Source: a virus (lineage: Duplodnaviria > Heunggongvirae > Uroviricota > Caudoviricetes). Taken from it: a stretch of 44,468 bases of DNA. Positions 591-17,675 of this stretch are shown in pieces. The translations under genes and the position numbers were made by a program. The stretch lies in IMG/VR virus record IMGVR_UViG_2778261246_000004, positions 1-44,468 of that record; one strand, given 5' to 3'. The notes beneath the pieces are model-generated. The model saw nothing but the letters and a program-made list of their open reading frames with translations, was not told the DNA's origin and made no database searches. Each line of letters begins with the position of its first letter. Within the stretch, counting starts at the first letter, position 1.

Positions 591-3500
591 TTACTCGATG
601 CGCACGAACAGGCAAAGGAATCCTCTATCACCATATGTAACACGCGTACCAGACAAAGCCTGATAACGCCCCGGGAAATTGTATGCACCGGCTCCGCCAA
701 CATTAACCTGGGGAGATGAAACATACGACCCGGCATCATTGATTGTGCAACTCATCGAGACTGGCCCCAGCCGCGAACCCGGTACGATATCCCCCAGACC
801 AATTTTGATTGCCTTATCGCCTGCTGCTGTTCCCTGATAGACTGCGAGAATAAGAGAGCCAACTGCCGGATATTTGTAATATGAGTACGGGCCGTTGCCT
901 GCCGTCCGGGACAGCAGGAAGGCCAGCGAATCGCCGTCGTAAATGACGGGACTTACTGTTGCATTCCAGTTATTTCCACTCCAGCGGTAAGTCAGGCGAT
1001 GAATACTGTGCTCACCTTCGTAATACTGGTTAAAACACAGCAGCGTTTTGAATTTACGCGTTGTGTCCGACTCATCGTTATCAAAGGGCGACCACATTAC
1101 ATCAATGATGCCGTTAAATTTTGTGGTTCCTGCCAGTAGTGTGGAAGAATCCGCAATACTGACCGCATAACGCCCCGGGGTGACCTCTTTCAGCCACTCA
1201 GCAAAATCAGCCTGCCCATCAAATGCCAGTGCATCGGTGCTGGTAAATGCCTGACCGAATCCATACATGCCGGACAGCGCCAGCCTGCTTGGTGTACGGT
1301 CGCGGATATCGCTCTGGGGGTCCATTGTTGCGGCAGCTTTTAATTCCAGCAACGCACGCATCTTCTCATATGTTCCCAGACCAAGAAGCGACTTCGCTCG
1401 CCCTGTCAGGTCCGTCAGTGTCAGATTCCCGCTTTCGTTGTAATACAAAAGTGAATTTTTTCTCGGCGTAATCTGACCGACTGCTGTTAACACGTCATTA
1501 AGCGGCTGTTTACCTGCCAGTGCTTTAGTGACGGTTGTCGCAAAGTTCGGGTCATTACCCAGCGCCGCTGCCAGCTCGTTCAGCGTGTCGAGGGCTTCCG
1601 GTGATGAGCCAACCAGCGCGGCAAGCAGTTTGCGGACAAACTCCGCATTGGCTATTTCATTACCTGCTGCATCATCTGGTGGTGTTGGCGTGGACGGCGT
1701 TCCGGTCAGTGCCGGGCTGTTCAGTGGCGCGCGGGTTTCAATCAGTGCCCGGAGTGAAGCCTCGTTGACTTTCAGGTTTTCCCAGCCAACCAGATAACCA
1801 TCTCCGGTAGTCCAGTAGCGATTGTAATAAATATGGCCGTTAATACCGTAAAAAATAATGATTTTGGCCACATATGCCGGATTGGGGTTGGTTTGAGGTT
1901 CCGGCCAGATAATTTCAACGGTGCCGCTGAACAGGACTCCGGGAATCACTTTATCTGCGCCATAAACGACATAACGACCCGGTTTTGCTGTTTTTACCCA
2001 GCGGAGAAAATCTGCCTCTGTTTTAAACTCGGTCCTGTCGCCGCTGGAAAATACTTTCCCGAATCCAAACATGCCGGGAATCGCCAGACGGCCTTCGGTG
2101 CGGTCGTAAATATTCTCCTGCGCATCCTTTTGTGCTGCATTGCCCAGTTGTGGCGTCAGATTCGTCCAGGTGACCGGGGCGGAGATATTATCGCCACGAA
2201 CGGTCATGAGTATCCGTCCGTCTTTTCCAAAAAACAGAACCAGCTTTGTTGCTGTCTGGCTGGTTTTGTCGTCCCAGCCATTATCCAGCCAGATAATTTC
2301 TGTTATTCCGGTCGTCTCTTCCGTTTGTGTGGAAAAGGTGTAATACCGTCCCGGGTGCAGGTTATGCGCGCTTTTGGCTATGGTCGCCATATCGCGGGCA
2401 ATAATTGAACTTGCTCCGGCGTCCGTCATTCCGTAACCAAATGCACCTGGCAGCGCAACACGGCCTTCCGTGCTGTCGTAAAGGTCTGTCTGAATGTCCC
2501 TTACCGCTGCGCTTTTCAGCTCAAGCTCATTGCGCATGGTTTCCACTGTGGCCTGTGCCAGCAGTGACCGGGCTTTTTCTGACAGCGGAGACAGTGAAGC
2601 ATTCCCGTCCTGATTAAAGCACAGAAGATTATCCGCCCGTTCTTCCAGATTACTGATTGCGGTTAACACGTCACTGAGTGGTTGTTTACCCGCCAGCGCG
2701 TTCATGATTGTTGTCGCAAACTCCGGGTCATTGCCCAGCGCCGCTGCCAGCTCGTTCAGCGTGTCCAGGGTTTCCGGTGACGAGTCAACCAGTGCAGCAA
2801 GCAGCTTACGGACAAAAGCCGCGTTCGCCATCTCCAGCCCGGTCGCATCGTCCGGTGGAGTTGGTGTGGTTGGCGTGCCGGTGAACGCCGGGCTGTCCAG
2901 CGGCGCTTTTGTTTTCGTCTCGTCCATGACGGTTTTGACGGCCTTCGGTGTGGCTGCCAGTTCTTCGCTGTCGTTATCCGTATCACTACAGAGTTGCACC
3001 AGGCCTTTTTCTGTCGTGGAGGCATTGCTTCCCTTCAGGTCATCAACTATCCGTTGCGCCTCGTCCCTGTGCTGTTTCGCGTTCTGCTCGCTTTTTGCTG
3101 CCGCTTCGGCGCTGGCTTTTGCCTCGCCGGTCAGCGTTGCGGCTTCATCGAGTTTATCGACCGCTTTCTGGACTATCTTATCGGCATCTTTGACCGCCTG
3201 TTCTGCACGGGCGGCATCCTGTTTGGCAGATGACGCCAGTAACGCCACCTGCTTTTTATCTTCGGCAACGTCTTCTGCGTTCTGCTGTACGTTATCTGCC
3301 AGCGTCTGACAGTCTGCCTTTATCTTCTGCGCATCAGCGACATGTTGCCCGGCCTGTTGTTCGCTTTCCGCTGCCGCTTCCGCGCTCTGCTGCGCCTGCG
3401 CCACCATTTCCTCAAAGCGTTTCACTACATCCGGCTTTAAATCGCCTTCATCAAGGGCGGTCAGAAAGTCGTTCAGCGTGCCGGGCTTTGAATCGTCGTA

Positions 3501-3731
3501 AACCGAAATATCACCGACACAATATTCTCTTTCAATACACGACCGAAAATAAACATCATATCTTCCAGTCTGAGCCTCAAATGCATATTCTCCTGCCGGC
3601 CCTGTCACCACTGTTGCCACCGTTCTCATGACCACTGCAGATGTATTCTGTCGGGCTTTCAGAATAATATGGTATCCGGACATGGGAAGCCCCGCCCCAT
3701 CAGTCAGCACACCAGAAATTAATACAGACAT
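591..3731 (-). CDS. stf: Side tail fibre protein, lambda Stf-like N-terminus with repeated C-terminal modules
   Basis: 1046-aa ORF; N-terminal 100 aa align by eye with lambda Stf (ISGVL..G.G.P...I.LKAR.N...V....V, YDDS/EDSQPGTLNDFL); coiled Ala/Gln-rich stalk; conserved block APLDSPA.TGTP..P; internal duplication. Confidence 0.8.
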   Translation of the reverse strand: MSVLISGVLTDGAGLPMSGYHIILKARQNTSAVVMRTVATVVTGPAGEYAFEAQTGRYDVYFRSCIEREYCVGDISVYDDSKPGTLNDFLTALDEGDLKPDVVKRFEEMVAQAQQSAEAAAESEQQAGQHVADAQKIKADCQTLADNVQQNAEDVAEDKKQVALLASSAKQDAARAEQAVKDADKIVQKAVDKLDEAATLTGEAKASAEAAAKSEQNAKQHRDEAQRIVDDLKGSNASTTEKGLVQLCSDTDNDSEELAATPKAVKTVMDETKTKAPLDSPAFTGTPTTPTPPDDATGLEMANAAFVRKLLAALVDSSPETLDTLNELAAALGNDPEFATTIMNALAGKQPLSDVLTAISNLEERADNLLCFNQDGNASLSPLSEKARSLLAQATVETMRNELELKSAAVRDIQTDLYDSTEGRVALPGAFGYGMTDAGASSIIARDMATIAKSAHNLHPGRYYTFSTQTEETTGITEIIWLDNGWDDKTSQTATKLVLFFGKDGRILMTVRGDNISAPVTWTNLTPQLGNAAQKDAQENIYDRTEGRLAIPGMFGFGKVFSSGDRTEFKTEADFLRWVKTAKPGRYVVYGADKVIPGVLFSGTVEIIWPEPQTNPNPAYVAKIIIFYGINGHIYYNRYWTTGDGYLVGWENLKVNEASLRALIETRAPLNSPALTGTPSTPTPPDDAAGNEIANAEFVRKLLAALVGSSPEALDTLNELAAALGNDPNFATTVTKALAGKQPLNDVLTAVGQITPRKNSLLYYNESGNLTLTDLTGRAKSLLGLGTYEKMRALLELKAAATMDPQSDIRDRTPSRLALSGMYGFGQAFTSTDALAFDGQADFAEWLKEVTPGRYAVSIADSSTLLAGTTKFNGIIDVMWSPFDNDESDTTRKFKTLLCFNQYYEGEHSIHRLTYRWSGNNWNATVSPVIYDGDSLAFLLSRTAGNGPYSYYKYPAVGSLILAVYQGTAAGDKAIKIGLGDIVPGSRLGPVSMSCTINDAGSYVSSPQVNVGGAGAYNFPGRYQALSGTRVTYGDRGFLCLFVRIE

Positions 3732-3756
3732 TTTTATTTCCTGATTCAGAAAACCA

Positions 3757-4857
3757 TTAACCGTAATAATTCACGCCTTTTTTATCGGCTTTTTTCTTCC
3801 CTGATGCTTTCCCTTTCACGGAGATATCGGTGGCCAGCGACAGATTCAGCGTAAATCCCTGCCCCGGTGCCAGTGAAAACTCCACCGACTCAGCCTGCCA
3901 GTTATGATCCTCGCGTACCCCAAAACCCTGCGTGATAAAACGCATCTCCGCTCCTGCTTTCAGCAGTTCCGGCCTGCAGGGCAACGTTATCGTCATCTGG
4001 CGTCCGGCTTTCTGCACACGTTTAACCTTCGACTCTGCACAGTGTTTTGCGGTATCCTGGTCAGGTTGGGTAAACGGATGCCGCTTGTCTGTTGACTCCA
4101 CGTCAACTTTAACTTCACGTGTGCGTCCGTCACGGGCATCAAAATACCGGACACCCACTTTCCCTTTTTTTGTTGTTCCTTTTCCGCCTCCGGATGCTCC
4201 CTGCCGCTCCCCCTCCCGGTAATCCCAGTCTGACACCATATCCGGTGTGATGGTCATTACAGGGGCATCCCTGCCACCTGTGCTCTGTGATGCACCATAC
4301 TCCAGAAATAACCAGTAACCGTTCGTCGGTTTACTGGTGGCACCATACATACCAGCAAGCCGGGAAAGCAGGGACGCATCCGATTCAGATGACTGCATCG
4401 CCCACGGAATACGAATTTTTGCCAGCGCCGGTGATACCTGCGCCACCAGATTATTTTCAGTGGCGATGGTTTTCACCAGGTCGCCCAGTGTGATATCGCT
4501 GAAAGCCCGGGTTTTCAGTGCGGTCACGTCTGCGCCATGTTTTGACGCATTCATGGGGGCTGCGGTGGCATAAATGGTGATCCGGCGGGGAGGACCGCCG
4601 CTTGCCACCTGACAGACTGTAAAGCTGCCTTTATTGACCAGGTTTCCGTTGAATCCCAGTCCCAGCATTAACACCGCGCCTTTTGGTGGCAGCGCCATCG
4701 TCTCACTGAACAGGGTTATCATCAGTTCATCAGAGCGCTTTGTGGCAGCACCATTATCGGTATAACGCAGTTCAGCCAGCCCCCGCTTTATGGCCTTCGT
4801 GATATCCTCACCCTCTGCTGTCAGGCTGAAATCCGGCTGATACTCATTCAGTCCCAT
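3757..4857 (-). CDS. Tail protein D (P2 gpD / late control D family)
   Basis: 366-aa ORF at the distal end of the sheath-tube-E-T-U-X-D block, matching P2 gene order; size and Gly/Lys-rich C-terminus typical. Confidence 0.7.
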   Translation of the reverse strand: MGLNEYQPDFSLTAEGEDITKAIKRGLAELRYTDNGAATKRSDELMITLFSETMALPPKGAVLMLGLGFNGNLVNKGSFTVCQVASGGPPRRITIYATAAPMNASKHGADVTALKTRAFSDITLGDLVKTIATENNLVAQVSPALAKIRIPWAMQSSESDASLLSRLAGMYGATSKPTNGYWLFLEYGASQSTGGRDAPVMTITPDMVSDWDYREGERQGASGGGKGTTKKGKVGVRYFDARDGRTREVKVDVESTDKRHPFTQPDQDTAKHCAESKVKRVQKAGRQMTITLPCRPELLKAGAEMRFITQGFGVREDHNWQAESVEFSLAPGQGFTLNLSLATDISVKGKASGKKKADKKGVNYYG

Positions 4858-5066
4858 AACTGAAACGTCTCCTTCACTTCCGGTTCATATACCCAGTCCG
4901 GCAACACGATTTCCACTCCCGCCGGATAGACCGGACCAAGGTCAGCCAGTCCGGGATTGGCTTCCAGTACCGCCGCCAGTGACTGGTTAAGCCCGGTACT
5001 GCCATAGTGTCTCTGGCAGATGTCATCCAGCATATCGCCGTCAGTAGTCCGCCAGTTTTTCGCCAT
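4848..5066 (-). CDS. Tail protein X-like (P2 gpX family, LysM-like)
   Basis: 72-aa ORF overlapping neighbours; size and position consistent with gpX. Confidence 0.5.
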   Translation of the reverse strand: MAKNWRTTDGDMLDDICQRHYGSTGLNQSLAAVLEANPGLADLGPVYPAGVEIVLPDWVYEPEVKETFQLWD

Positions 5067-5535
5067 AGTATTTCAGCTCCAGTGTGAACGTTTTGTTCTT
5101 CGGCGCACCGCCGGGAAGAAAGGACGTGGTGTTATCTGAATAGGCAGTTGCCACGAAATACCCCATCACATCACCTGTGCTCGAGACCAGAAGATGCGGG
5201 GCCGGATTGTCATCCACCATCTGAACCAGTGTATCAAGAGCGTCCATTCCCACACCGTCACGAAATCCTGCATGCGCCATACCTTCAAGGGTTATTGTTC
5301 TGGCCCCCTTGCCGGTATACTGCAGCAGGTCGTTTTTTCCGATAAGCTGTTGTTCATCCCATCGCCATTCCATCGTGCGCTTCATGGCGTTATAAGCAGC
5401 AGTATCAATACTGAATTCAAACTCACCAAACGACAGCATGACGCGGGAGGCGACATCCGTTAATGATCCCACCGCGTCCCATGCTTCACGCTCAAGCCGG
5501 TTTACGCCCCAGCCCAGCAAATCCACCATATTCAC
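5041..5535 (-). CDS. Tail protein U-like (P2 gpU family)
   Basis: 164-aa ORF directly after the tape measure gene with ATGA overlap; matches P2 T-U-D order. Confidence 0.55.
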   Translation of the reverse strand: MNMVDLLGWGVNRLEREAWDAVGSLTDVASRVMLSFGEFEFSIDTAAYNAMKRTMEWRWDEQQLIGKNDLLQYTGKGARTITLEGMAHAGFRDGVGMDALDTLVQMVDDNPAPHLLVSSTGDVMGYFVATAYSDNTTSFLPGGAPKNKTFTLELKYYGEKLADY

Positions 5536-7193
5536 CCCCAGAATGCATCACCATCAGTCATGCGGGAACGCTGACCAAAATTAATATCTCCCAGATTTTT
5601 CGTTACCCTGTCTGCCAGTTGTCCGGCATCCTCGCCGGGCTTCTGAGTGATGTTAAATTCCGCCCGTATCTGATATGTGGGTTTTACTTCCACCTGGCTG
5701 ATACTGCCAGAGGTATCTTTCAGTGCCGAGAGGCGATCCTGGTTTTCCGGCTCCTGCCCTGCAGCAGGGAGTACGCCATACTCTGACAGACCATTGCGGA
5801 TTGCCTCTTCCCATCCCTTAAAGTCGGGAGTATCTTCTGGCCCCAGCAAAGGGTCGAGAAATGCATCAAACTTTTTATTGTCGTGATTCCAGGGGAGATA
5901 ACCGCGGGTGTCTTTATAGGCCTGTACAACCTGTTTCGTCAGGTCCGGATTTTTCCTGATAAGTTCATCAAACCATTCACCCTGACCGTTTTTCTGCGCC
6001 ACCGCTCTTGCCAGCTCCGGCGACCCCATTTTTGCCAGATATTCCAGCACCTCTCGCCGGTCCTCTCGCGGATCATCCGCCAGCCCCCACTCAATGGCTT
6101 TTTGTGTAATTCCGCCCAATACTTTTCCGAAATTCCACATCCAGGCAGCCATCCTGATCAACGTCGGCAAAGCGACGTCATTTATAAATTTCTGAATTTT
6201 TTCCAGTCCACCATACTTAAACCAGGCCGCAAGGTCATCCGTCACTCGTTGAATATGGGGGGAAAGCTGCTTACCCAGCTTTCCACTGATATCATCAATG
6301 GAAGAATTCAGAACATTGCGGAGATTCGACAGCGCCGCATGTCCCTGTACTGCGCCATCTACCCCTTCTTTTGTTACCAGGTTATAACGTTTCTGCTCAC
6401 TGATAAGCTCACCGAAGGTTTTTCCTGACAGACGCATCCAGGTCAGAATTTTATTGGCCTCACCACCAAACAATGCATCTGCCATCCCGGCAGCCACCTG
6501 TTCATCTTTCACCTCCAGCAACCGATCAAAAATAAATTCAACCTGCTCCTGGTTGTTTTTTCCGGCCATCACCCCGGCTTTCAGTCCCAGTTTGCCAAAA
6601 ACCTCCTGAATGGCCCCTTTATCAGTGGCACCATTATCATCGTCAAAAACCTTGTTCCGGTACTCCTCAAACAGATCACCGATGTTTTCACCGTTCAGCC
6701 CCATCAGTCGGGCCAGAGAATCCCATGCCGCATAGGTTTCATAATCCACCCCATAACTGCGGGCTATCCCTGCCCGCTCTGCCGTCTCCGTATTCCGGTT
6801 AAGCACAGCAGTAGTGCCCGCCGCCAGCGTCAGGCCCGCCCCCGCAGAAAGCCCAAAACCGGTTTTAAGGACCGTCCCCGCCCGCCCTTTCCAGCGTTCC
6901 AGGCGTTCCGCACGAGCCAGTTTACGGTTAAATTTGTCCTGCTCTCCGGTGGCATCATGAATTTTTTTACCCAGCTTTTCATACTGCTTTCGCAGATCAG
7001 TAATATCCTGTCCAGCCAGTACGCCAGCCTGAATTTTTCGTTTCAGTACATCCTGCTGGCGTGTCAGGCGAGCCACTTCCTGCGTTGCTCCTGATAATCC
7101 GTGCTTCAGTCCATCTACCGATTTTTTCCACGACGGATCTATCGAGCCGCCGATCCTGATATTCGCTTTAAGGTTATCGCCAACCGTTGCCAT
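5532..7193 (-). CDS. Tail tape measure protein
   Basis: 553-aa ORF downstream of the tail chaperone frameshift gene; Ala/Gly/Leu-rich with predicted coiled segments; overlapped by the E' extension. Confidence 0.7.
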   Translation of the reverse strand: MATVGDNLKANIRIGGSIDPSWKKSVDGLKHGLSGATQEVARLTRQQDVLKRKIQAGVLAGQDITDLRKQYEKLGKKIHDATGEQDKFNRKLARAERLERWKGRAGTVLKTGFGLSAGAGLTLAAGTTAVLNRNTETAERAGIARSYGVDYETYAAWDSLARLMGLNGENIGDLFEEYRNKVFDDDNGATDKGAIQEVFGKLGLKAGVMAGKNNQEQVEFIFDRLLEVKDEQVAAGMADALFGGEANKILTWMRLSGKTFGELISEQKRYNLVTKEGVDGAVQGHAALSNLRNVLNSSIDDISGKLGKQLSPHIQRVTDDLAAWFKYGGLEKIQKFINDVALPTLIRMAAWMWNFGKVLGGITQKAIEWGLADDPREDRREVLEYLAKMGSPELARAVAQKNGQGEWFDELIRKNPDLTKQVVQAYKDTRGYLPWNHDNKKFDAFLDPLLGPEDTPDFKGWEEAIRNGLSEYGVLPAAGQEPENQDRLSALKDTSGSISQVEVKPTYQIRAEFNITQKPGEDAGQLADRVTKNLGDINFGQRSRMTDGDAFWG

Positions 7194-7310
7194 AACGTCG
7201 CTTCCTCTCTTCCGACTCCGCCAGCATCATTGACACAAAATCCGTATACGGCAGCGCCATCACATCTCCGGGAGACCACCCGAACCAGGCACCGGCACGC
7301 CGTATCGCCG

Positions 7311-7619
7311 TCAGGATGCTTTCTTCTTCCGCCGGACCGGCGGCAGCAAAAAAACATTAAACTGCCGCTCCAGAGCCAGGTAATCACACGCTTCCATGTT
7401 CATCATGTCTGCCGCGTCCATCCCGCACAGACCGGCAATCATATCCAGATCAGCCTCGGCTTCCGGTTTGGTACTCCTGCGATGTAACAGACGATCGCGG
7501 ACAGTGGGCGCACGCATGGTGACGTGCGTGATCGTCTGTCCTGATGCGGTGACATACGGCACGGATAACACAATTTCCACGCTGCTGGCAGGCACACTGT
7601 TTTTTTCCGACATAAGCAT
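7311..7619 (-). CDS. Tail assembly chaperone (P2 gpE-like); E+E' fusion made by -1 frameshift, extension ending at stop 7174-7176
   Basis: 102-aa ORF between tube and tape measure genes; slippery T TTT TTG near its 3' end; -1 frame stays open for 57 codons (AAAGPAEEESILTAIRRAGAWFGW...GNGWR) and overlaps the tape measure start. Confidence 0.7.
   Translation of the reverse strand: MLMSEKNSVPASSVEIVLSVPYVTASGQTITHVTMRAPTVRDRLLHRRSTKPEAEADLDMIAGLCGMDAADMMNMEACDYLALERQFNVFLLPPVRRKKKAS
7346..7356 (-). promoter_or_regulatory. Programmed -1 ribosomal frameshift slippery site (G TTT TTT TG, T-run at plus 7348-7354)
   Basis: Heptamer T TTT TTG in the zero frame of the chaperone gene; same motif and position as the P2 E/E' and lambda G/GT systems. 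Confidence 0.6.
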
Positions 7620-7673
7620 CTCCTTTAAAAAAGAAAAGGCGGCCTGAGCCGCCTGAATAACCGGATACCCGGA

Positions 7674-8192
7674 TTAAACCCGGATGATTTTTTTCAGATC
7701 AGACAGAACATTAACGCCGTTAATACGGCGCACAAATTCCTCCGGAATAATGCAGATGGTTTCCACACCGTCGACAGCCTGACGGTAATAACTCAGTGAC
7801 ATTTCCACCGTCACCGAAGCCTCTGCCTGTGATGTCGCCGGGCGCGCATCCGGCGTGATACTGGTGATCATCCCCTGCAGTGTCTCCACCTGCCCGCTGG
7901 TCGCATTTCCCACCTGGTAAGCCTGGCGGACAACAATCTCCGGCGAATAAAGCCCGGCCTGCAATCCCAGCAGCGTAAGCATGGCAACATCATAACCATA
8001 AATCTTAAACGAACAGGTCAGCGCTTCCATGCCGTCATCCACTGCCACCGGTGCATCCATTGCGCCGGTTTTGATATCCACTGTCGTGATATTAATGGCA
8101 GGCGGCGTGTATTCATGCGCACCCTGAAGGCGGATCCCGCCAGGAAGAAATAACGCCCATGCGCGCAACAGTTTTTTTTCACCCGTCATCAT
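7674..8192 (-). CDS. Tail tube protein (P2 FII-like)
   Basis: 172-aa ORF directly downstream of sheath with ATGA overlap; same length as P2 FII. Confidence 0.75.
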   Translation of the reverse strand: MMTGEKKLLRAWALFLPGGIRLQGAHEYTPPAINITTVDIKTGAMDAPVAVDDGMEALTCSFKIYGYDVAMLTLLGLQAGLYSPEIVVRQAYQVGNATSGQVETLQGMITSITPDARPATSQAEASVTVEMSLSYYRQAVDGVETICIIPEEFVRRINGVNVLSDLKKIIRV

Positions 8193-9664
8193 ACCGTCAG
8201 TTCCTCCAGCGCCAGTTTATTGTTAATCATTGCCCGCAGTGTCAGGCGCTCCAGTGGTGACTTCGGCCCAAAGTCATAATCGATATACAACTGCCCTGCC
8301 GCCAGGGTTTCTGCTGTATTCAGTTCATCATTCAGCCAGGCGCTGCCACCGTGGATCGCACCCAGATTTTTAAGCTGACGCATATAGGCATTAATGCTGC
8401 CAAGAATGTCGTCTGCCACATCCCGATCAAGCGGGCGATCGACATAAGGCAACATGGCCTCCTGGATACTGTCCTCAATCACATCTGCAGTGCGACGTAC
8501 CGGTTCAAAGCGCCACTGACTGTGGGATGTGCACAGACGGTTACCCCAGTGTTTAAAACCGTCATGGCGAATAATGGTGGAGATATTTTCCATGTTCAGC
8601 AGGTTTGCCGTGCAGTTCTGCTCCCCGAGAATAAACGTATCCACCTGCTCCAGACCGGTGATATTCATCACGTCCTGGTTTGATTTGGACCACCACCACC
8701 CTTTTTCGTAATCAATACGGGCACGCAGCCCGGCAGCACGAGCCGAATATGGACGAAATATCGTTTGCCCGCTGTCATCCGTCACTGACACGCGCGGACG
8801 CAGCAGCTCCACACGCCCACCAAATGACGCGCGCCGCTGAACCACATCCTGCGGCGTTGCCATTGAAGGCGAGTCAATATAGGCCACAGCCCGCAGCTTC
8901 ACGGCATACGTTTCCAGCGCCTTTGCCACGCCATCATCCTCACTGTACCCCGTGGCAATGAGGATGCGCGGTTGATAGCCTGTGACGCCCTTACTTTCTG
9001 TCAGCGCCTCCATGGCCTGAATCACCGCCGCACGCTGTTCGGCCTCTTTCGCCTTTGTTTTACTTTCTGCGCGCACCACAATCACCAGCGCACCAGTCTG
9101 GTCAAAAATATCACGCAGGGCCGGGTATAATGTTCCGGCTGTGCCCAGTTTCCCCGCCTGAGTAATGGCCCCTGCCACCACCACCGGTGTGTTGACCGGG
9201 AACGCCTCATCTTCCCCGCCGGATAACGTCAGGCTGAATGGCGACACCACTTTATTTTCAGCGCCTCCTGCATTCAGGGTGCTGGCAGCCGCCGTCACAG
9301 GCGAATCCCCCAGCGCATTCACCACTTCAGTCACACGATCCACCGTGGCGTTAACCTGGCTGTGTTCGTCCGTCCCCAGTGTTATCGTCAGGGTCGTACC
9401 TTTCAGCGAGGCCACTGTCTGCGCGTTTTGTTCCGTGGCAGCCACGGCAACAACCGAAATCTTATTACCGACCCGACCTTCCTGTTTCGCCGTGAAATCC
9501 AGCGCCGTTCCCAGCAGCCATGAGCCGGCAGTGCCGGAAGCGCACACACCACCAGAGGCGTCCGGCGCTGTCCCCACCAGGCCAATCACTGCCGTGGAGA
9601 TGGTCTGCACGGCAACCGTGCCTGTCGTCAGTTCAATGGTTTCAACACCATGTAATCCGGACAT
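8189..9664 (-). CDS. Contractile tail sheath protein (P2 FI-like)
   Basis: 491-aa ORF; size, position upstream of tube gene and overall sequence character match myovirus sheath proteins. Confidence 0.8.
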   Translation of the reverse strand: MSGLHGVETIELTTGTVAVQTISTAVIGLVGTAPDASGGVCASGTAGSWLLGTALDFTAKQEGRVGNKISVVAVAATEQNAQTVASLKGTTLTITLGTDEHSQVNATVDRVTEVVNALGDSPVTAAASTLNAGGAENKVVSPFSLTLSGGEDEAFPVNTPVVVAGAITQAGKLGTAGTLYPALRDIFDQTGALVIVVRAESKTKAKEAEQRAAVIQAMEALTESKGVTGYQPRILIATGYSEDDGVAKALETYAVKLRAVAYIDSPSMATPQDVVQRRASFGGRVELLRPRVSVTDDSGQTIFRPYSARAAGLRARIDYEKGWWWSKSNQDVMNITGLEQVDTFILGEQNCTANLLNMENISTIIRHDGFKHWGNRLCTSHSQWRFEPVRRTADVIEDSIQEAMLPYVDRPLDRDVADDILGSINAYMRQLKNLGAIHGGSAWLNDELNTAETLAAGQLYIDYDFGPKSPLERLTLRAMINNKLALEELTV

Positions 9665-9676
9665 ACATTTCTCCCA

Positions 9677-9700
9677 TAAAAAAACCGCCCTCAGGCGGTC
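9677..9700 (-). terminator. Rho-independent terminator-like hairpin between the fibre chaperone gene and the sheath gene
   Basis: Minus-strand RNA GACCGCC-UGAG-GGCGGUC followed by U8, just upstream of the sheath RBS. Confidence 0.5.
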
Positions 9701-9718
9701 AGATGATTAACTTCTTTT

Positions 9719-10264
9719 TCAGGTATTTTGTGGCTGCTCAGGCCAGCTAATATTGTTGTAAGTGGTCTTATCCGTAATAGCGCTGAAATCCATCGCCTGC
9801 AGCGATTTCGCGTAAATGCGGTACGCTTTGAGCTTTTCCCTGTCTTCGTCGCTGATTAAACCCAGCAGCAGGTCTTTTTCCCATTCGCTGGTCATGATAC
9901 TGACCTGTTTTAACAGTGCGTCACACTCATCTTCCGCTTTAAGTTTGTAGTCAAAAACAAATTCATCATTGCGGTAGAACCAGTAACCCGACGCCTCAAT
10001 GCGACGATTGGCGGTAATATCCGGTAGCTCAATCACGCTTTTATTTTCCGGGCAGATTGAGGTGATGTCTTTTCCGACCCAGACCACTTCGCCAGTTTCA
10101 ACATAAATAACTTTCAGAGTGTCTGGCTGAAATTTTTCCTGGGCTTCGTGCCATTCCTGACCATCATCGGAGAACAGCCACAATAAAAATTTATGCTGTC
10201 GCGCCAGCTGGTATTGCTCAATTGTTTTGGGGTTTTGTACCGTAAGATTTTTTAAGTGCATCAT
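9719..10264 (-). CDS. Tail fibre assembly protein (P2 gpG / Tfa-like)
   Basis: 181-aa ORF; N-terminus MMHLKN...NPKT.EQYQL and motif LPDITANRR typical of enterobacterial Tfa proteins; directly 3' of fibre gene. Confidence 0.75.
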   Translation of the reverse strand: MMHLKNLTVQNPKTIEQYQLARQHKFLLWLFSDDGQEWHEAQEKFQPDTLKVIYVETGEVVWVGKDITSICPENKSVIELPDITANRRIEASGYWFYRNDEFVFDYKLKAEDECDALLKQVSIMTSEWEKDLLLGLISDEDREKLKAYRIYAKSLQAMDFSAITDKTTYNNISWPEQPQNT

Positions 10265-10266
10265 AA

Positions 10267-11652
10267 TTACAAACTCGCTACATTCCGCCAGACGCCATTA
10301 ATCAGAACCTGCACCGGGCGGGCATTGGCCCAGTCCATACTTTCACCACCATCAAGACCGCTGATAAGGTGACCTGATGGTGCATTCCCGCCACGCCCAA
10401 TACCAATGGCACCGCCCAGACGCACATCCTGTACACCGCCTGTTTTGGTCTGATAGCGGGCATCAAAGTTTCCGTAGTTTGATGGAACCATCTGCCCGTT
10501 TACAGCGAACGTTATACTGTTATCCGTATTCCTCTGACTGTAAAAATGCCAGCCGGAATCATCGCCAAGCTCTGCAACTACAGGTCGGGATGAATTACCC
10601 CATAAATTAAACGTTGCGTTTTTCGTGGAGTTGTTGGCGCTGGATAACGTGAATTTTTTAGCATTTCCGGCCTGAATATTTTTTAACGCTATCGCCACAC
10701 CATTCTGGAAACGAAATACATGCTGTCCATTCGCATAAACATCCAGAATGCCGTCGCCGTTTTGTTTTATACCTGTATCGTTATCCCCGAAAGCAATTGA
10801 GTTTCCGCCCAGCGCGTTCTGAACGCCGATACCCAGCGTACCATTGACCTGAGAACCGCCGCCAACAGACACTTTATGCGACATGGATATTTCACCCGTC
10901 CGCAGATTAATAGTGAACGGTCGAAGTGGACCAATATCGCCATTCTCGCCCTGACCTTCACTGGTAGGGATAAGGTGCAGGCACTCTTCCGAACGACGAA
11001 AAATCAGACCAAAGGCTTCGTTGAAAATCCTCAGCGCATTAACACCACGGATTTTCAGTTCCCCGGTCATGGTGTCACCATCACGCTGAACGGCATTTTT
11101 TGCCTTGTCCACCGTGGGTTTTAATCCGAGGTTTTCAACAGCCTCATCCTTGTCTTCCACATCCGAAAGATTCTTTTTTCGTTGCAGATAGCGTCTGTCT
11201 CCGATTTCCTGAGTAATAATGGCCCTGTCCGGATCAACTTCCAGCACCACGTTTTGTGCGTGCGTCAGCCCAAGAACCAGCGTCAGAATAACTTCCTTGA
11301 TAACGGAGTCCGTCTGGTCTGGTAAAAAGGTGTCGGGATAACGTCCGTACGCGATAAGCGTACCTCTGTCGCTGATCATCCCCAGTTCACGAAGGGTTTT
11401 ACCGGGGTATGATTTACAGTCAATCACAATATCCCCGCTGATGAAGCCCTCCTCCACCGCACCGTCGGAAAAGGGTTCCTGCCCGAATTCGCCGTACAAC
11501 GATGTCATTGCTGCCATTTCATCCGGCGTGGAGGGCAATGCCCGCCCGCCCCCGTCACCAAGCAGAACATGCCGGACGGTCACGGTTTGCCCGTTCTGAT
11601 ATGCTGCTTCAATTTCTGCAGCGCCGGACGTTGTCAGAATCAGTCCATTCAT
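10267..11652 (-). CDS. Tail fibre protein (P2 gpH-like N-terminal domain)
   Basis: 461-aa ORF between gpI-like and Tfa genes; Gly/Asn-rich C-terminal half typical of fibre tips. Confidence 0.75.
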   Translation of the reverse strand: MNGLILTTSGAAEIEAAYQNGQTVTVRHVLLGDGGGRALPSTPDEMAAMTSLYGEFGQEPFSDGAVEEGFISGDIVIDCKSYPGKTLRELGMISDRGTLIAYGRYPDTFLPDQTDSVIKEVILTLVLGLTHAQNVVLEVDPDRAIITQEIGDRRYLQRKKNLSDVEDKDEAVENLGLKPTVDKAKNAVQRDGDTMTGELKIRGVNALRIFNEAFGLIFRRSEECLHLIPTSEGQGENGDIGPLRPFTINLRTGEISMSHKVSVGGGSQVNGTLGIGVQNALGGNSIAFGDNDTGIKQNGDGILDVYANGQHVFRFQNGVAIALKNIQAGNAKKFTLSSANNSTKNATFNLWGNSSRPVVAELGDDSGWHFYSQRNTDNSITFAVNGQMVPSNYGNFDARYQTKTGGVQDVRLGGAIGIGRGGNAPSGHLISGLDGGESMDWANARPVQVLINGVWRNVASL

Positions 11653-12239
11653 ACACCTGCCTCACTCTGCCCGCCTGTGGGCACTGTCTTTGTTGTCACA
11701 CCGGTACTTCTGATTTTTTCTGTCGCCATCACATAGCCGTAACCAAATCCACGCCCTGTGCTGTTCCCGTAAACGTGAATACTGAACCAGCTGCGCAGAT
11801 TTTTGGCACGGAGCACCGCATGCTTCAGATCCTGATGATCATTCATCAGCACCGGTAAATCCTTCTGCTCCACGTTCAGACGAAAGGTATACGGCTCCCC
11901 GGGTGGGGTCTGCTCATACCACTCAACAATCTGCGACCGGAAGGGACTGTCAGCCAGCGATGCCATCAGCGCCGCTTTAGTCCCTCTGTGGCGGTGGATG
12001 TAAGCAGCACGTTTTATCGCAGACCGTTTTTCCGCCTCCGTCCAGTGTTCATTCCAGGTGTCCACCGCCATTTCCCAGGCCAGCCATGGCAGCAATTCAG
12101 CAGGACATAAATCGGGATTTTTCACATAGCGGATCAGGCAGACCGCTATGTCTGACAGCATATCTCCGGCGACACAGTCCACCACCCGCTCTGCCCGGCT
12201 GGCACTGACCGGCAGTATGCTCCTGATATCGTCATTCAT
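11649..12239 (-). CDS. Baseplate protein gpI-like
   Basis: 196-aa ORF; motif PA.LLPWLAWE/A...D.W matches P2 gpI by memory; position after gpJ. Confidence 0.75.
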   Translation of the reverse strand: MNDDIRSILPVSASRAERVVDCVAGDMLSDIAVCLIRYVKNPDLCPAELLPWLAWEMAVDTWNEHWTEAEKRSAIKRAAYIHRHRGTKAALMASLADSPFRSQIVEWYEQTPPGEPYTFRLNVEQKDLPVLMNDHQDLKHAVLRAKNLRSWFSIHVYGNSTGRGFGYGYVMATEKIRSTGVTTKTVPTGGQSEAGV

Positions 12240-13146
12240 CAGTTGTCTCCACCTTATTCAGCGTTACCTTACGGCACCACGGTGCCTGCCCCATCGCAGG
12301 AACGATATCACTGCCCGGAGAAGTCAGATTCACCGTAATCACCCCGGTCTGGTGAAGGGCACCATCCATGCCAGAACGGGATGCCACCGAGCCAATCCGG
12401 TGGACACTGTCAGTGTATGACTGCAGCGCCTTGTGGGCATTTGCCATAACCAGTTCACCATCCAGTCCGTAGGGAATATGAATATCCGCCACCACATCGT
12501 AGGGAATAATTTCTGCCGCCCGGACACTGACAAAATCCGTCAGGGGACGGGTTTCATCATCACAGACTGATGCTGCCACCTTATCCAGCAGAGGTTGTGA
12601 TGCAGTGCCATTTCCGGACCGGGATAACACATAAAGAAAAACCCGGCCTTCCTGCGAATGTGTTTCCGGCCCGTAAGCCTTCACATCCAGCACGTCAGGA
12701 TCAGCACTTTGTGCAAAATAGTGATACGCATTTTTCGCGCCGGCGGTGCTGAGCCGTGCCCATGACAACTGGATACGTTCGCGAAAAGCGTCATCATCTT
12801 CATACACCGCCGGCGTGGGCGGAACGGTGCTGTCGTCTGCCGGGGTAATCACCAGACGCTGTACCTGAAAATTCGCACCAATCTGATCCAGGTCGTTCCT
12901 TCGGGCGCTCGCAAGCAGTACACCCCGGACAGCATCATTGACCTGCTGGCGCATCAGCGCCACCCGGAAAGCCAGCGCCTCTGCCCATTTATACGCGGGA
13001 TCAGATTCCACCAGAGCCGAAAACAACGTATCCAGCTCCTGATACTTCGCCACTATCTGAGTGACCAGCACAGCGGTGTCCGGCACCTCCACCGCATCCG
13101 GTACCGGTATCGCGGACAGATCAATAATTGCCTGAGACGTTGCCAA
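12232..13146 (-). CDS. Baseplate assembly protein J (P2 gpJ-like)
   Basis: 304-aa ORF (P2 gpJ is about 302 aa); V-W-J-I order. Confidence 0.8.
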   Translation of the reverse strand: MATSQAIIDLSAIPVPDAVEVPDTAVLVTQIVAKYQELDTLFSALVESDPAYKWAEALAFRVALMRQQVNDAVRGVLLASARRNDLDQIGANFQVQRLVITPADDSTVPPTPAVYEDDDAFRERIQLSWARLSTAGAKNAYHYFAQSADPDVLDVKAYGPETHSQEGRVFLYVLSRSGNGTASQPLLDKVAASVCDDETRPLTDFVSVRAAEIIPYDVVADIHIPYGLDGELVMANAHKALQSYTDSVHRIGSVASRSGMDGALHQTGVITVNLTSPGSDIVPAMGQAPWCRKVTLNKVETTDE

Positions 13147-13477
13147 TTTTTATCTCCTCGAGTCGAATCGTTTCCTGAGTTTCGTTGTTCACCCCGACAA
13201 GCGTCAGCCACGCGCTTCCTTCTCCTGTCCACGTCACTTCCACCCGCCGGAGAGTCAGACGGGGTTCCCAGCGTTCAAGGGCGGTTACCGTTTCACGAAC
13301 AATTCTCACCCGCGTGAAATCATCCTGTGGGTTATCAAGCAGACTGAAAAGTCTGCTGCCGTATTCCCTGAGCAGGACCCGGCTGCCGACCGGTGTTGAC
13401 AAAATATCAGTGACGGACTGGCGCAGATGTTCGTTACCGTGCAGATATCTGCCGGTGGCTGAATCAATACCAATCAT
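13121..13477 (-). CDS. Baseplate protein W (gpW / GP25-like)
   Basis: 118-aa ORF; block D.L.TPVGSRV.RR.YGS resembles P2 gpW. Confidence 0.8.
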   Translation of the reverse strand: MIGIDSATGRYLHGNEHLRQSVTDILSTPVGSRVLLREYGSRLFSLLDNPQDDFTRVRIVRETVTALERWEPRLTLRRVEVTWTGEGSAWLTLVGVNNETQETIRLEEIKIGNVSGNY

Positions 13478-13510
13478 GTTGTTTATTCCGGAAAAAGAAC
13501 TGAAAGGAGA

Positions 13511-14134
13511 TTACATTTGCTGACCAGGCTGTCCGGTGCTGCCACCACTGTCGCCCCGGTGATTGTGACCGTTATAGACAATTCTGATTTGACTCATCGT
13601 TCCGTGATAATCAGAAACCTCACCACCGACCATCAGATCCGCCTTAACCACCGCCTCAGCATTCATGGTTGCTTTACCCTGTACGGTCAGGGTATCTGTG
13701 ATTTCTACCGGACCGTCCAGGGTTCCCCTGCCTGTAATTTTATAGCTGCCGCCTTCAGCCAGCGTGATGGACAGGACATTAGCCTGACGGTCGTAACGGA
13801 TTTCCGTTCCGGTATCAAACAAAATAACATGTTCGTATTCACTGCCCTCAGGGACAGGAATGGCGTCAATATTGGCCCCCGGATACACCCGACCGTTACG
13901 CAAATCGCCCGCCTCCGATATCACTGTAACGGCATCTCCGGGAGCCGGGTAATTACTGACCTGCATGTAGCGCCCGGACTGTACCTGAATCCAGGGCAAC
14001 GGAGGCGAAAGCACATCCCCGATATCCACCCGAACCATCACCGGGCTACCCGGGATCACCTCGTCCACCACGCCGCGACGGACCATGTCCGCCACCCTGC
14101 GGCGTAACTCTGCCACTTCATCCGCCAGACTCAT
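13511..14134 (-). CDS. Baseplate spike protein V (P2 gpV-like)
   Basis: Start taken at internal ATG 14134 (GGAGGG RBS 8 nt upstream; longer ORF overlaps the upstream gene); C-terminal Gly-rich needle motif with His residues. Confidence 0.75.
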   Translation of the reverse strand: MSLADEVAELRRRVADMVRRGVVDEVIPGSPVMVRVDIGDVLSPPLPWIQVQSGRYMQVSNYPAPGDAVTVISEAGDLRNGRVYPGANIDAIPVPEGSEYEHVILFDTGTEIRYDRQANVLSITLAEGGSYKITGRGTLDGPVEITDTLTVQGKATMNAEAVVKADLMVGGEVSDYHGTMSQIRIVYNGHNHRGDSGGSTGQPGQQM

Positions 14135-14684
14135 CACCGGTGCCCTCCGATTTCCAGATAAGACGATAATCCCGCTCATGTTTCTTGCCGGTTTCCGGAG
14201 CTTTCCCCAGCCAGACTTCCTGTAACGGCGCACCAGCCGGAACCTCGAACGGATCTTCTCCGACAGGAATATCCTGTTCAAAAGAAACGCGGAAAACGAT
14301 GTAGTCATCCAGAAGCCGGTCGAAGGTATCCACCTCAGCATCAATAAAAACAGCCGGATCAACGTTATCCAGCCCGAACGTGGCCCCCTCAATCCAGTCA
14401 GATAAATCCATCGCCAGACAACGGGCAAAAATCTGCGGTTTTGGCACGTTTTCCGTCTTCCCGGCCCGGTCTGTCACCACAAACAGATCACATTTCAGCG
14501 TGACCCGCGTCTGCCCGTCGGCAAACTGAGCCTTGTCCCAGCCCGGTACATCCACAAACACGGCAGGCGTCACCAGTTGTGTCACTTTTTCCGGATACTC
14601 ATCGGCATCTTCCACCCAGGGAATTTGTTTCAGACTGTCAATCACCGCCTGATGCCAGGCGCCCATCATCAATGGCTCCATCAC
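14118..14684 (-). CDS. Hypothetical tail completion / neck protein (position of P2 R/S)
   Basis: 188-aa ORF between head-joining genes and gpV; function assigned by position only. Confidence 0.4.
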   Translation of the reverse strand: MMEPLMMGAWHQAVIDSLKQIPWVEDADEYPEKVTQLVTPAVFVDVPGWDKAQFADGQTRVTLKCDLFVVTDRAGKTENVPKPQIFARCLAMDLSDWIEGATFGLDNVDPAVFIDAEVDTFDRLLDDYIVFRVSFEQDIPVGEDPFEVPAGAPLQEVWLGKAPETGKKHERDYRLIWKSEGTGDESGG

Positions 14685-15403
14685 TCCAGCCCCTTAAATA
14701 CCCGGAATTTCAGTTCATGCTCAAAATTTTTCAGGATCAGTGCTTCCGCATCCGGAAAAACAAAATCCTCTATACGGTTCAGCATGGCTTCATAAATATC
14801 AATTTCCGCTTCACGCACCCTCCGTCGTCCGGATGCCTGTCGGATCAGTATCGTTTTCCTTTTTGATATACGTCCGTTACGATTTTCCGCTTCGAACTGG
14901 TTGATAAAGGCATCATCCGTTGACCAGGTGGTGACAGGCAGGGATTCCCCGGCAGGTTTAAAACGGATCTCCCGTGCCTTCCTCCGGTGGGAAGCTGGTG
15001 CAAAACGCCCCCGCTCATCGCGCAACTGATGGCGTTCGCCGCGTCGTCCCCCACTGATGCGTCCGCGCAGATCGCGTACTTTGATGGCGTTCAGACCGAA
15101 CCATACCTTCGCCTCATCAAACTCATCACCGTTACGACGAATGATAAAATTATGCAGAACACGCTTTTTGATCATTTTCTGACTGCGTGGGGCAACCTGT
15201 TTTTTAAACTCTGCCATAGCCTTCATCCGCAGTGCAGACGCGGCTCTTTTCAGCGCCACGCCCCAGGCTTTACGGATCTGACTTTTTGACCCACCCAGTT
15301 TAGCGATAATTTTCAGCACCTCATCTTCATCAATATCGACAACGAGGTTTCGTGCCAGCCGTCGCTGCCGGGCACTGCTTCGTTCATGCTCTCTGACTGC
15401 CAT
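14681..15403 (-). CDS. Hypothetical virion protein (possible tail completion or head-tail connector)
   Basis: ORF 14681-15463; start likely ATG at 15403 (MAVREHER), overlapping the FII-like gene end; basic protein. Confidence 0.4.
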   Translation of the reverse strand: MAVREHERSSARQRRLARNLVVDIDEDEVLKIIAKLGGSKSQIRKAWGVALKRAASALRMKAMAEFKKQVAPRSQKMIKKRVLHNFIIRRNGDEFDEAKVWFGLNAIKVRDLRGRISGGRRGERHQLRDERGRFAPASHRRKAREIRFKPAGESLPVTTWSTDDAFINQFEAENRNGRISKRKTILIRQASGRRRVREAEIDIYEAMLNRIEDFVFPDAEALILKNFEHELKFRVFKGLE

Positions 15404-16153: not shown

Positions 16154-16203
16154 CACATCTCTCCCGTGCGCTAAAGAAAAAGGCGGGAATATCCCGCCCT
16201 GTC

Positions 16204-17232: not shown

Positions 17233-17301
17233 AATTTATTTTCCTTCAGAAACACAAACGGGCCGCATCGCGACCCGTTTTTTCAGTTAATCACTTCACC
17301 A

Positions 17302-17637: not shown

Positions 17638-17675
17638 TTTTCAGCCTCCTGATTTATCTGAATTCCGGATATCGC

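What the first reader, a model, noticed from the sequence alone, without database searches (positions are those of the whole stretch)
7174..7356. Programmed -1 frameshift (T TTT TTG) producing an extended tail chaperone E+E' that overlaps the tape measure gene
Seen: slippery heptamer in the zero frame of the 102-aa chaperone gene 12 codons before its stop; the -1 frame stays open for 57 codons to a TAA at 7174-7176, overlapping the tape measure start (7193). Established: P2 E/E' and lambda G/GT use this mechanism and a TTTTTTG site is conserved in P2-like phages. Note the ATG-initiated ORF 7139-7387 in the track is the +1 frame and looks non-coding.
Basis: partly seen in the sequence, partly recalled or inferred. 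Interest (0 to 1): 0.45.

Follow-up and report, generated by a model that had tools for sequence, protein, structure and literature searches.

The report
Tail chaperone -1 frameshift site, P2-type
A prophage tail-assembly chaperone gene carries the classic T TTT TTG slippery site that lets a fraction of ribosomes shift back one base and make a longer second protein, as in phages P2 and lambda; it is real and well conserved, but ordinary.

Summary

- **Layout (minus strand).** A PF10109 tail-assembly-chaperone gene (7619/7613..7311) lies between the tail tube gene and the tape measure gene. It contains an in-frame T TTT TTG at 7353..7347. The -1 frame runs 57 codons to a TAA at 7176..7174 and overlaps the tape measure start (7193) by 20 nt.
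- **No start of its own.** The -1 ORF is closed by a TAA two codons 5' of the heptamer. It has no start codon before its codon 29.
- **Conservation.** All 34 related loci checked (E 56-100% identical) keep the heptamer and the -1 ORF.
- **Selection.** dN/dS of the extension is 0.21 in the -1 frame (0.095 upstream of the internal start) and about 2 in the other two frames.
- **Wider relatives.** In more distant Enterobacterales prophages and in P2, the first T of the heptamer is the wobble base of five different codons.
- **Comparison with P2.** The fusion aligns colinearly with P2 E+E', with the junction F-L aligned. The extension itself does not reach Pfam PF06528.

Verdict: a new, unannotated member of a known kind, of low interest. 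Frameshifting was not shown experimentally here.

The parts
7311..7619 (-). Tail assembly chaperone gene (E-like). It is 102 aa from the ATG at 7619; the more likely start is the ATG at 7613 (100 aa). The stop TGA is at 7313..7311.
   Evidence: ORF list. Pfam PF10109 Phage_TAC_7, 45.9 bits against a cut-off of 25. phrog_166 'tail protein', E=1e-23. PGAP start and the 100-aa product in homologues.
7347..7353 (-). Slippery heptamer T TTT TTG in the zero frame (GT-T TTT TTG; P-site Phe UUU, A-site Leu UUG).
   Evidence: Sequence and pattern search. In frame in all 34 related loci checked, 33 close ones plus L035. Identical heptamer and frame in P2. First T kept as the wobble base of GTT, GCT, AAT, CGT and GGT codons in different lineages.
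7174..7347 (-). -1 frame extension (E'-like): 57 codons, AAAGPAEEESILTAIRRAGAWFGWSPGDVMALPYTDFVSMMLAESEERKRRYGNGWR, then TAA at 7176..7174. The predicted fusion is 146 aa (148 aa from the first ATG).
   Evidence: Translation. Variable sites by -1-frame codon position are 7/8/25. dN/dS is 0.21 in the -1 frame, against 2.3 and 1.9 in the other frames. Conserved at protein level in distant relatives.
7357..7359 (-). TAA that closes the -1 frame two codons 5' of the heptamer, so the -1 ORF cannot be entered from upstream.
   Evidence: the -1 frame is open only 43 nt upstream of the E stop. The first ATG/GTG/TTG in the -1 ORF is GTG 7263..7261 / ATG 7260..7258, extension codons 29-30.
7329..7343 (-). 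Small G+C hairpin CCGCCG-GUC-CGGCGG starting 3 nt after the heptamer. It is a possible but unproven stimulator.
   Evidence: -11.4 kcal/mol, z = -2.0, 11 of 200 shuffles fold as well. The stem is kept in all close relatives and, with a different loop, in L035. No covariation is seen, and the hairpin is absent in Hafnia phage yong2.
5532..7193 (-). Tape measure protein gene (553 aa). Its ATG at 7193 lies 20 nt inside the end of the extension, in the same frame as E.
   Evidence: ORF list. phrog_3654 E=1e-206, plus weaker matches to several tape measure PHROGs. Named 'phage tail tape measure protein' by PGAP in some E. coli genomes. Frame relation.
7674..8192 (-). Tail tube gene (FII-like), directly upstream of the chaperone gene.
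   Evidence: Pfam PF04985 Phage_tube, E=1e-23.
8189..9664 (-). Tail sheath gene, which places the module in a contractile tail.
   Evidence: Pfam PF04984, PF17482 and PF22671.

Best explanation
This is a programmed -1 ribosomal frameshift in the tail assembly chaperone gene of a contractile-tailed E. coli-type prophage.

- **Main product.** Most ribosomes read the gene (7613/7619..7311) to its TGA and make the roughly 100-aa chaperone.
- **The shift (inferred).** A minority, with tRNA-Phe on UUU in the P site and tRNA-Leu on UUG in the A site, slip back one base on U UUU UUG (7353..7347).
- **Second product.** Those ribosomes continue in the -1 frame for 57 codons to the TAA at 7176..7174. The result is a roughly 146-aa fusion with the same N-terminal chaperone domain plus an E'-like C-terminal domain.
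- **Function (by analogy, not shown here).** In lambda G/GT and P2 E/E+E', the common domain coats the tape measure protein and the extension recruits the tail tube subunit. The fixed ratio set by frameshift efficiency is needed for correct tail assembly.

Shown here: the sequence anatomy, the conservation, and coding selection in the -1 frame. Inferred: that slippage is ribosomal, its efficiency, and the protein functions.
For: - **Anatomy.** The heptamer is in frame. The -1 ORF is closed just upstream and has no start codon before its codon 29.
- **Gene identity and position.** PF10109 chaperone between the tube (PF04985) and the tape measure gene, followed by gpU, tail protein X and gpD homologues.
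- **Close relatives.** All 34 related loci checked, 33 close ones plus L035 (E 56% identical), keep the in-frame TTTTTTG and a -1 ORF of the same extent. One of them (L031) has moved the zero-frame stop without affecting the -1 ORF.
- **Substitution pattern.** Third-position bias in the -1 frame is 7/8/25. dN/dS is 0.21 in the -1 frame, and 0.095 for the part that no internal start could express, against 2.3 and 1.9 in the other frames. dS equals that of the chaperone body.
- **Distant relatives.** Prophages of Trabulsiella, Serratia, Scandinavium and Citrobacter keep T TTT TTG after GCT, AAT or CGT codons, with T runs of 6 or 7. Their extensions are recognisably homologous.
- **P2.** The same heptamer, in the same frame, is annotated as a -1 frameshift. 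P2 E is 91 aa and E+E' is 142 aa, and E+E' overlaps the start of T (PMC3091744).
- **Alignment with P2.** The fusion profile aligns colinearly with P2 E+E', residues 12-130 against 5-130, with the junction F-L matched, E=1.1e-4.
- **Precedent for T7G.** A T7G site is already described in the P2-like phage Smp131 (PMC3931495).
- **Uniqueness in the window.** No other real gene has a comparable site.
Against: - No experimental evidence exists for this element.
- The extension does not match Pfam PF06528 (P2 GpE) at any listed E-value.
- The profile-profile link to P2 E' is weak (probability 35-56%).
- The downstream hairpin is small, starts only 3 nt after the heptamer and shows no covariation. 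No stimulator is established.
- A sister clade keeps the -1 extension with a non-canonical site (GTT TTT ATG), so the exact slippage rules in this family are not fully understood.
- The fusion is not annotated in any of the matching E. coli RefSeq records examined.
Confidence: 0.88

Rival explanations
1. Transcriptional slippage. RNA polymerase adds one extra U on the run of 7 T's, so a fraction of mRNAs carry the extension in frame. The same fusion protein would be made without ribosomal slippage.
For: The run here is 7 T's. Homopolymer instability at this run is visible in databases: protein P0002 (25 member sequences) reads as if one T were missing. An insertion of one U would give the same -1 frame product.
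Against: Lineages with the same design have runs of only 6 T's (L035/L070, L079, L081, P2), or 4-5 T's in the sister clade. From general knowledge, efficient bacterial RNA polymerase slippage needs runs of about 9 or more. What is conserved is the frame-specific heptamer, with its first T at the wobble position of five different codons. That conservation is expected for tandem tRNA slippage, not for a polymerase signal. The literature treats the P2 site as a translational frameshift (PMC3091744, PMC3931495).
Confidence: 0.06
2. The downstream ORF is a separate small gene started internally at GTG 7263 or ATG 7260 (a GGAG lies 5 nt upstream). It would give a 28-29-aa peptide, and no recoding would be involved.
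For: GGAGATGTGATG gives a plausible Shine-Dalgarno spacing. Annotators of Hafnia phage yong2 called a 39-aa ORF in the equivalent place.
Against: The 28 extension codons upstream of that start are conserved as protein. dN/dS is 0.095 in the -1 frame. Motifs such as ILxAIRxxG..F.. are shared down to 37% E identity. These codons contain no ATG, GTG or TTG and are preceded by a TAA. Only a shift from the chaperone frame can express them.
Confidence: 0.03
3. There is no function: either a chance open -1 frame next to a chance T run, or an assembly error that splits one gene in two.
For: TTTTTTG is not enriched in the window, 18 found against 13.6 expected. From composition alone, a 57-codon open frame is not very rare.
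Against: The same arrangement appears in 74 E. coli genomes, 32 IMG/VR contigs and 21 other species' genomes. Selection is frame-specific and purifying. The arrangement is identical in P2.
Confidence: 0.01

Closest known systems
Bacteriophage P2 E / E+E' (FETUD operon; Christie et al. 2002, as cited in PMC3091744 and PMC3931495; record NC_001895)
   Same: - Identical heptamer T TTT TTG in the same frame position near the 3' end of a PF10109 chaperone gene.
- -1 extension of 57 codons in both.
- The end of the extension overlaps the tape measure start (20 nt here, 8 nt in P2).
- Product sizes are similar: 100 and 146 aa here, 91 and 142 aa in P2.
- Same gene order: sheath, tube, chaperone, tape measure, gpU..., gpD.
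- The fusion aligns colinearly, with the junction F-L matched.
   Different: - Only about 23% identity.
- The extension does not reach Pfam PF06528.
- T7G here against T6G in P2.
- 11 zero-frame codons follow the site here, against 5 in P2.
- A tail protein X gene lies between gpU and gpD.
- The head module is lambda/phage 21-like, so the phage as a whole is not P2-like.
- A small GC hairpin follows the site, whereas none is reported for P2 (PMC3091744).
Phage lambda G / GT tail assembly chaperones (Levin et al. 1993; Xu et al. 2004, 2013, 2014, as summarised in PMC5009743)
   Same: - Same logic: a chaperone gene between the major tail gene and the tape measure gene.
- A low-level -1 shift near the 3' end gives a C-terminally extended second product.
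- The presumed roles are the same: the common domain binds the tape measure protein and the extension binds the tube protein.
   Different: - No detectable sequence similarity.
- From my own knowledge, lambda uses G GGA AAG.
- Lambda has a non-contractile tail.
Phage Mu / BcepMu-type chaperone pair, with access to the +1 frame by -2 frameshifting (PMC5009743)
   Same: PF10109 chaperone with a homologous extension. The PhiKM and KP12 extensions align with this one and give the best sub-threshold PF06528 hit, 0.0066.
   Different: In those relatives the extension lies in the +1 frame relative to the chaperone. A -2 or +1 shift is therefore needed, not a -1 shift at T TTT TTG.
Stenotrophomonas phage Smp131 orf27/27.1 (PMC3931495)
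   Same: [quoted passage not shown]
   Different: It is a true P2-like phage of a different host. Sequence similarity to this element was not tested here.

Membership tests
Frameshifted tail assembly chaperone pair (lambda G/GT, P2 E/E+E' class; Xu, Hendrix & Duda 2004) | The gene pair lies between the major tail/tube gene and the tape measure gene. | tested here: met
   Tube 8192..7674 (PF04985), chaperone 7619..7311 (PF10109), tape measure 7193..5532 (phrog_3654 plus tape measure PHROGs).
Frameshifted tail assembly chaperone pair (lambda G/GT, P2 E/E+E' class; Xu, Hendrix & Duda 2004) | The second ORF overlaps the 3' end of the first in another frame and has no start codon of its own for the conserved part. 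| tested here: met
   The -1 ORF is closed by TAA 7359..7357. The first possible start is at extension codon 29.
Frameshifted tail assembly chaperone pair (lambda G/GT, P2 E/E+E' class; Xu, Hendrix & Duda 2004) | A slippery sequence lies in the zero frame inside the overlap. | tested here: met
   T TTT TTG at 7353..7347, in frame. It is the only canonical heptamer in the 15-codon overlap.
Frameshifted tail assembly chaperone pair (lambda G/GT, P2 E/E+E' class; Xu, Hendrix & Duda 2004) | The second-frame ORF is conserved as coding sequence in relatives. | tested here: met
   (dN/dS 0.21 in the -1 frame, about 2 in the other frames).
Frameshifted tail assembly chaperone pair (lambda G/GT, P2 E/E+E' class; Xu, Hendrix & Duda 2004) | Both products are made in a fixed ratio, and both are needed for tail assembly. 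| not testable with these tools
   Needs protein analysis and genetics.
Pfam PF10109 Phage_TAC_7 (E, gp41, gp14 chaperones) | Score above the curated gathering threshold. | tested here: met
   45.9 bits (fusion 49.6) against a cut-off of 25, covering model positions 2-78 of 79.
Pfam PF06528 Phage_P2_GpE (the E' part of P2 E+E') | Score above the curated gathering threshold (23 bits). | tested here: not met
   The window extension gives no hit up to E=10. L035's extension scores 13.4 bits, PhiKM's 16.4 bits and P2's own 78.6 bits. Profile comparison is only weakly positive and colinear.
P2-like phages (Peduoviridae) | P2-type virion modules throughout (heads as well as tails) and DNA or protein similarity to P2. 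| tested here: not met
   The head genes are about 77% identical to lambda/phage 21. The tail region has no DNA match in 50,697 phage records. E is about 23% identical to P2 E.
Transcriptional slippage sites | A long homopolymer run (about 9 or more, from general knowledge) that is conserved irrespective of reading frame. | tested here: not met
   The run is 7 here, 6 in L035, L070, L079, L081 and P2, and 4-5 in the sister clade. What is conserved is the frame-specific heptamer.

The most novel reading that the evidence does not exclude
Three modestly novel readings remain possible.

1. In this lineage, recoding may depend on features that P2 lacks. The invariant GC hairpin that starts only 3 nt after a T7G site may act as a stimulator.
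2. Part of the fusion may come from RNA polymerase slippage on the T7 run.
3. The extension may be a distinct E' family outside PF06528.

The sister clade is related to this. It keeps the same -1 extension behind a non-canonical T TTT ATG site, which would imply P-site-only slippage as a regular expression signal in tail chaperone genes.
Probability: 0.12. Interest if true: 0.3.

Novelty: new member of a known kind. Interest (0 to 1): 0.15.

Why it matters
- **Annotation.** This prophage type occurs in 74 of 5,426 complete E. coli genomes. The record examined in detail has a 117-nt unannotated gap where the extension lies, and none of the listed records names a fusion product. A tail assembly protein that is probably essential is therefore missing from their proteomes.
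- **A recipe for calling such sites.** The case gives a clean comparative procedure: an in-frame heptamer, a closed upstream -1 frame and frame-specific dN/dS.
- **Biology.** It adds no new principle.

Tried and rejected
- **DNA search against phage records.** The 800-bp region gave no match among 50,697 phage records.
- **NCBIfam.** No family matched the chaperone, the fusion, the extension or the tape measure protein.
- **Solved structures.** No relative was found by sequence; all hits had E>0.4.
- **Rfam.** No family matched around the site; the best E-value was 0.64, for an unrelated sRNA.
- **IMG/VR scan with P2 E.** It returned only near-identical P2 copies, so it could not be used to build a diverse E' profile.
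- **Christie et al. 2002.** The paper (PMC135442) is not held, so P2 facts are taken from the P2 record and from papers that cite it.
- **Long hairpin pairing the U run with AAGAAGAAAGCA.** The wider region folds no better than shuffles, z = -0.65, so this was rejected as evidence.
- **+1-frame ORF 7387..7139.** Rejected as a gene.
- **Upstream GGAG as a Shine-Dalgarno-like stimulator.** It lies 13 nt 5' of the heptamer. I did not pursue it, because its position is not consistent across relatives and it sits in conserved codons.
- **Structure prediction of the fusion.** Not attempted.
Full report
**What is in the sequence**

All features lie on the minus strand. The ORF 7619..7311 (102 aa from the first ATG) ends ...CAG TTT AAT GTT TTT TTG CTG CCG CCG GTC CGG CGG AAG AAG AAA GCA TCC TGA.

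- The heptamer T TTT TTG occupies 7353..7347. It is in the X XXY YYZ register of the zero frame, and TTG is the 12th codon before the stop.
- From the G of TTG, the -1 frame reads 57 codons: AAAGPAEEESILTAIRRAGAWFGWSPGDVMALPYTDFVSMMLAESEERKRRYGNGWR. It ends at a TAA at 7176..7174.
- The next gene starts at the ATG at 7193, preceded by GAGAGGAAG, so the overlap is 20 nt. That gene is in the same frame as the chaperone gene.
- The -1 frame is closed by a TAA (7359..7357) two codons 5' of the heptamer. It has no ATG, GTG or TTG until GTG 7263 / ATG 7260, which are extension codons 29-30.

There are three small corrections:
1. The +1-frame ORF 7387..7139 starts with GTG.
2. The chaperone probably starts at the second ATG (7613, 100 aa). 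That start has proper spacing from GGAG and is the one PGAP calls in E. coli homologues.
3. The T run has seven T's.

**What the genes are**

- The ORF is a Pfam PF10109 tail assembly chaperone ('E, or 41 or 14'), 45.9 bits against a cut-off of 25.
- Upstream lie a tail tube gene (PF04985) and a tail sheath gene.
- Downstream lie a 553-aa protein, then gpU, tail protein X and gpD homologues. The 553-aa protein matches phrog_3654 and, more weakly, several tape measure PHROGs. PGAP names it a tape measure protein in some E. coli genomes.
- This is the canonical position of the frameshifted chaperone pair of long-tailed phages.
- The head module of the same element is about 77% identical to lambda/phage 21 heads. 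The tail region has no DNA match in 50,697 phage records. The element is thus a mosaic prophage, not a P2-like phage.

**Is it more than chance?**

- The bare motif is not enriched: 18 found against 13.6 expected.
- I listed all 72 in-frame X XXY YYZ heptamers in ORFs of at least 100 aa. This is the only one in a real gene, close to its stop, whose -1 frame runs far beyond that stop. The other flagged cases are antisense shadow ORFs or extensions of 2-8 nt.

**Comparative evidence**

- The region is 90-97% identical in 74 of 5,426 complete E. coli genomes.
- It is also present in 32 IMG/VR contigs with E 56-100% identical.
- All 34 related loci checked keep the in-frame TTTTTTG and a -1 ORF of the same extent. 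These are L001, 31 IMG/VR contigs and L035, whose E is 56% identical.
- In L031 the zero-frame stop has moved by four codons while the -1 ORF is untouched.
- The +1 ORF is cut at varying points.
- In the 117 nt between the chaperone stop and the tape measure ATG, variable sites fall 7/8/25 on -1-frame codon positions 1/2/3.

Mean pairwise dN/dS among 23 distinct close sequences:

| Segment and frame | dN/dS |
|---|---|
| Chaperone body, zero frame | 0.056 |
| Extension, -1 frame | 0.21 |
| Extension upstream of the internal GTG/ATG, -1 frame | 0.095 |
| Same DNA, zero frame | 2.3 |
| Same DNA, +1 frame | 1.9 |

dS of the extension (0.28) equals that of the chaperone body. The extension is therefore translated in the -1 frame. 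This includes a part that only a shift from the chaperone frame can reach.

**More distant relatives**

A scan of one genome per species found 21 further loci in Enterobacterales, with E 37-56% identical.

- T TTT TTG is in frame in Trabulsiella (GCT TTT TTG), Serratia (AAT TTT TTG), Scandinavium (GCT) and a Citrobacter (CGT). P2 has GGT TTT TTG.
- The first T of the heptamer is thus kept as the wobble base of five different codons, while the T run varies between 6 and 7. This is the signature of selection on a tandem-slippage heptamer rather than on a homopolymer.
- The extensions align over their whole length: ILxAIRxLGxxLxF...DYLxLPxxxF...E.E.

- P2's record annotates E (91 aa), E+E' (142 aa, a -1 frameshift at the same heptamer) and an overlap with T. 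PMC3091744 and PMC3931495 describe the same arrangement, and the latter describes a T7G variant in Smp131.
- BLASTP of the two fusions gives a colinear 23% alignment across the junction, E=0.065.
- A 13-sequence fusion profile aligns with P2 E+E' over residues 12-130 against 5-130, with the junction F-L matched, E=1.1e-4, probability 56%.
- The extension profile alone aligns AGAWFGWSPGDVMALPYTDF with VAVIFHWPPSELYPMSLTEL, E=4e-4, probability 35%.
- Pfam PF06528, which covers P2 E' (78.6 bits), does not hit the window's extension at all. It gives only sub-threshold hits in relatives (L035 0.056; PhiKM 0.0066).
- The extension therefore works like P2 E' and is probably a distant homologue. It fails the curated family threshold.

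**Mechanism**

The best-supported mechanism is tandem -1 slippage of tRNA-Phe and tRNA-Leu on U UUU UUG. It would give a minority fusion product of about 146 aa.

By analogy with lambda G/GT (PMC5009743), the common domain would bind the tape measure protein and the extension would recruit tube subunits. These functional steps are inferred, not shown.

A 6-bp GC hairpin (7343..7329) starts 3 nt after the heptamer.
- It folds at -11.4 kcal/mol with z = -2.0.
- The stem is kept in all close relatives and, with a different loop, in L035.
- It never varies, so there is no covariation. It encodes conserved residues in both frames, and it is absent in Hafnia phage yong2.
- The literature reports no such structure for P2 (PMC3091744).
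- I treat it as a possible stimulator only.

**Rivals**

- *Transcriptional slippage on T7.* It is not excluded for this particular sequence. It is disfavoured because relatives with the same design have T6, or even T4-T5.
- *Internal initiation at ATG 7260.* A GGAG lies 5 nt upstream. This cannot explain the conserved upstream half of the extension.
- *Chance or assembly error.* Excluded by the comparative data.

**Verdict**

The finding is real and correctly interpreted. It is a new, unannotated member of a well-known kind of recoding.

The RefSeq record examined in detail has a 117-nt gap there, and none of the listed records names a fusion product. No protein in the 5.8-billion-sequence collection covers more than 61% of the fusion.

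Interest is low. The somewhat more curious observations are in the relatives: a non-canonical site in the sister clade, and +1-frame extensions in the BcepMu-like group. They are listed as things noticed in passing.

Noticed in passing
L068 1750-1940, L069 1750-1940, L071-L090 (about 250 nt after position 1501): A sister clade keeps a clearly homologous -1 frame extension, but its site is GTT TTT ATG, and CGT TTT ATG with only four T's in L075. The clade comprises 16 Enterobacterales genomes plus Hafnia phage yong2 and Citrobacter phage Chris1. The site is not a canonical X XXY YYZ heptamer, because only the P-site tRNA-Phe could re-pair. The same TAA closes the -1 frame just upstream. This suggests P-site-only slippage on U UUU, or some other signal.
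   Followed up: partly
L002 2680-2890, L003 2680-2890, L036-L065 (about 3150-3400): In BcepMu-like phages (PhiKM, KP12) and about 30 high-GC IMG/VR relatives (E 28-36% identical), the homologous extension lies in the +1 frame of the chaperone gene. G-rich runs lie near the junction, for example ATG GGG GCG in L037. This fits the -2/+1 frameshifting reported for Mu-type phages (PMC5009743).
   Followed up: partly
window 7347-7354 (T run); protein P0002: A database protein cluster (P0002, 122 aa, 25 member sequences) continues after ...QFNVF into the +1-frame reading CCRRSGGRRKHPDG.... This is as if one T of the T7 run were missing. It is either a real homopolymer indel that would disable the chaperone, or a sequencing error.
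   Followed up: no
window 7637-7654 (-) and 9683-9700 (-): Two terminator-like hairpins followed by T runs bracket the sheath-tube gene pair. One lies between the tail fibre assembly gene and the sheath gene. The other lies between the tube gene and the chaperone gene. They could attenuate transcription into the chaperone and tape measure genes and so lower their dosage relative to sheath and tube.
   Followed up: no
L001 4390-4506 and the other E. coli RefSeq hits: PGAP annotates the chaperone (100 aa) and the tape measure gene but leaves the 117-nt extension region unannotated in L001. None of the listed records names a fusion CDS. In many records the tape measure protein is called 'hypothetical protein'.
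   Followed up: partly
window 28147-29191 (-): A cluster of five tRNA genes (Val-AAC, Gly-TCC, Thr-TGT, Lys-TTT, Met-CAT) lies inside the prophage.
   Followed up: no
window 12500-23500 versus 3700-12300: The prophage is a mosaic. The terminase, portal, protease/scaffold and capsid genes are about 77% identical in DNA to lambda/phage 21. They are joined to a contractile P2/Mu-type tail module that has no DNA match among sequenced phages.
   Followed up: partly
window 591-3731 (-): The 1046-aa tail fibre-like protein downstream of gpD contains an internal duplication. An approximately 85-aa segment, PL(D/N)SPA(F/L)TGTP(T/S)TPTPPDDA...LNELAAALGNDP(E/N)FATT...ALAGKQPL(S/N)DVLTA, occurs twice. The modules that follow each copy are also similar.
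   Followed up: no
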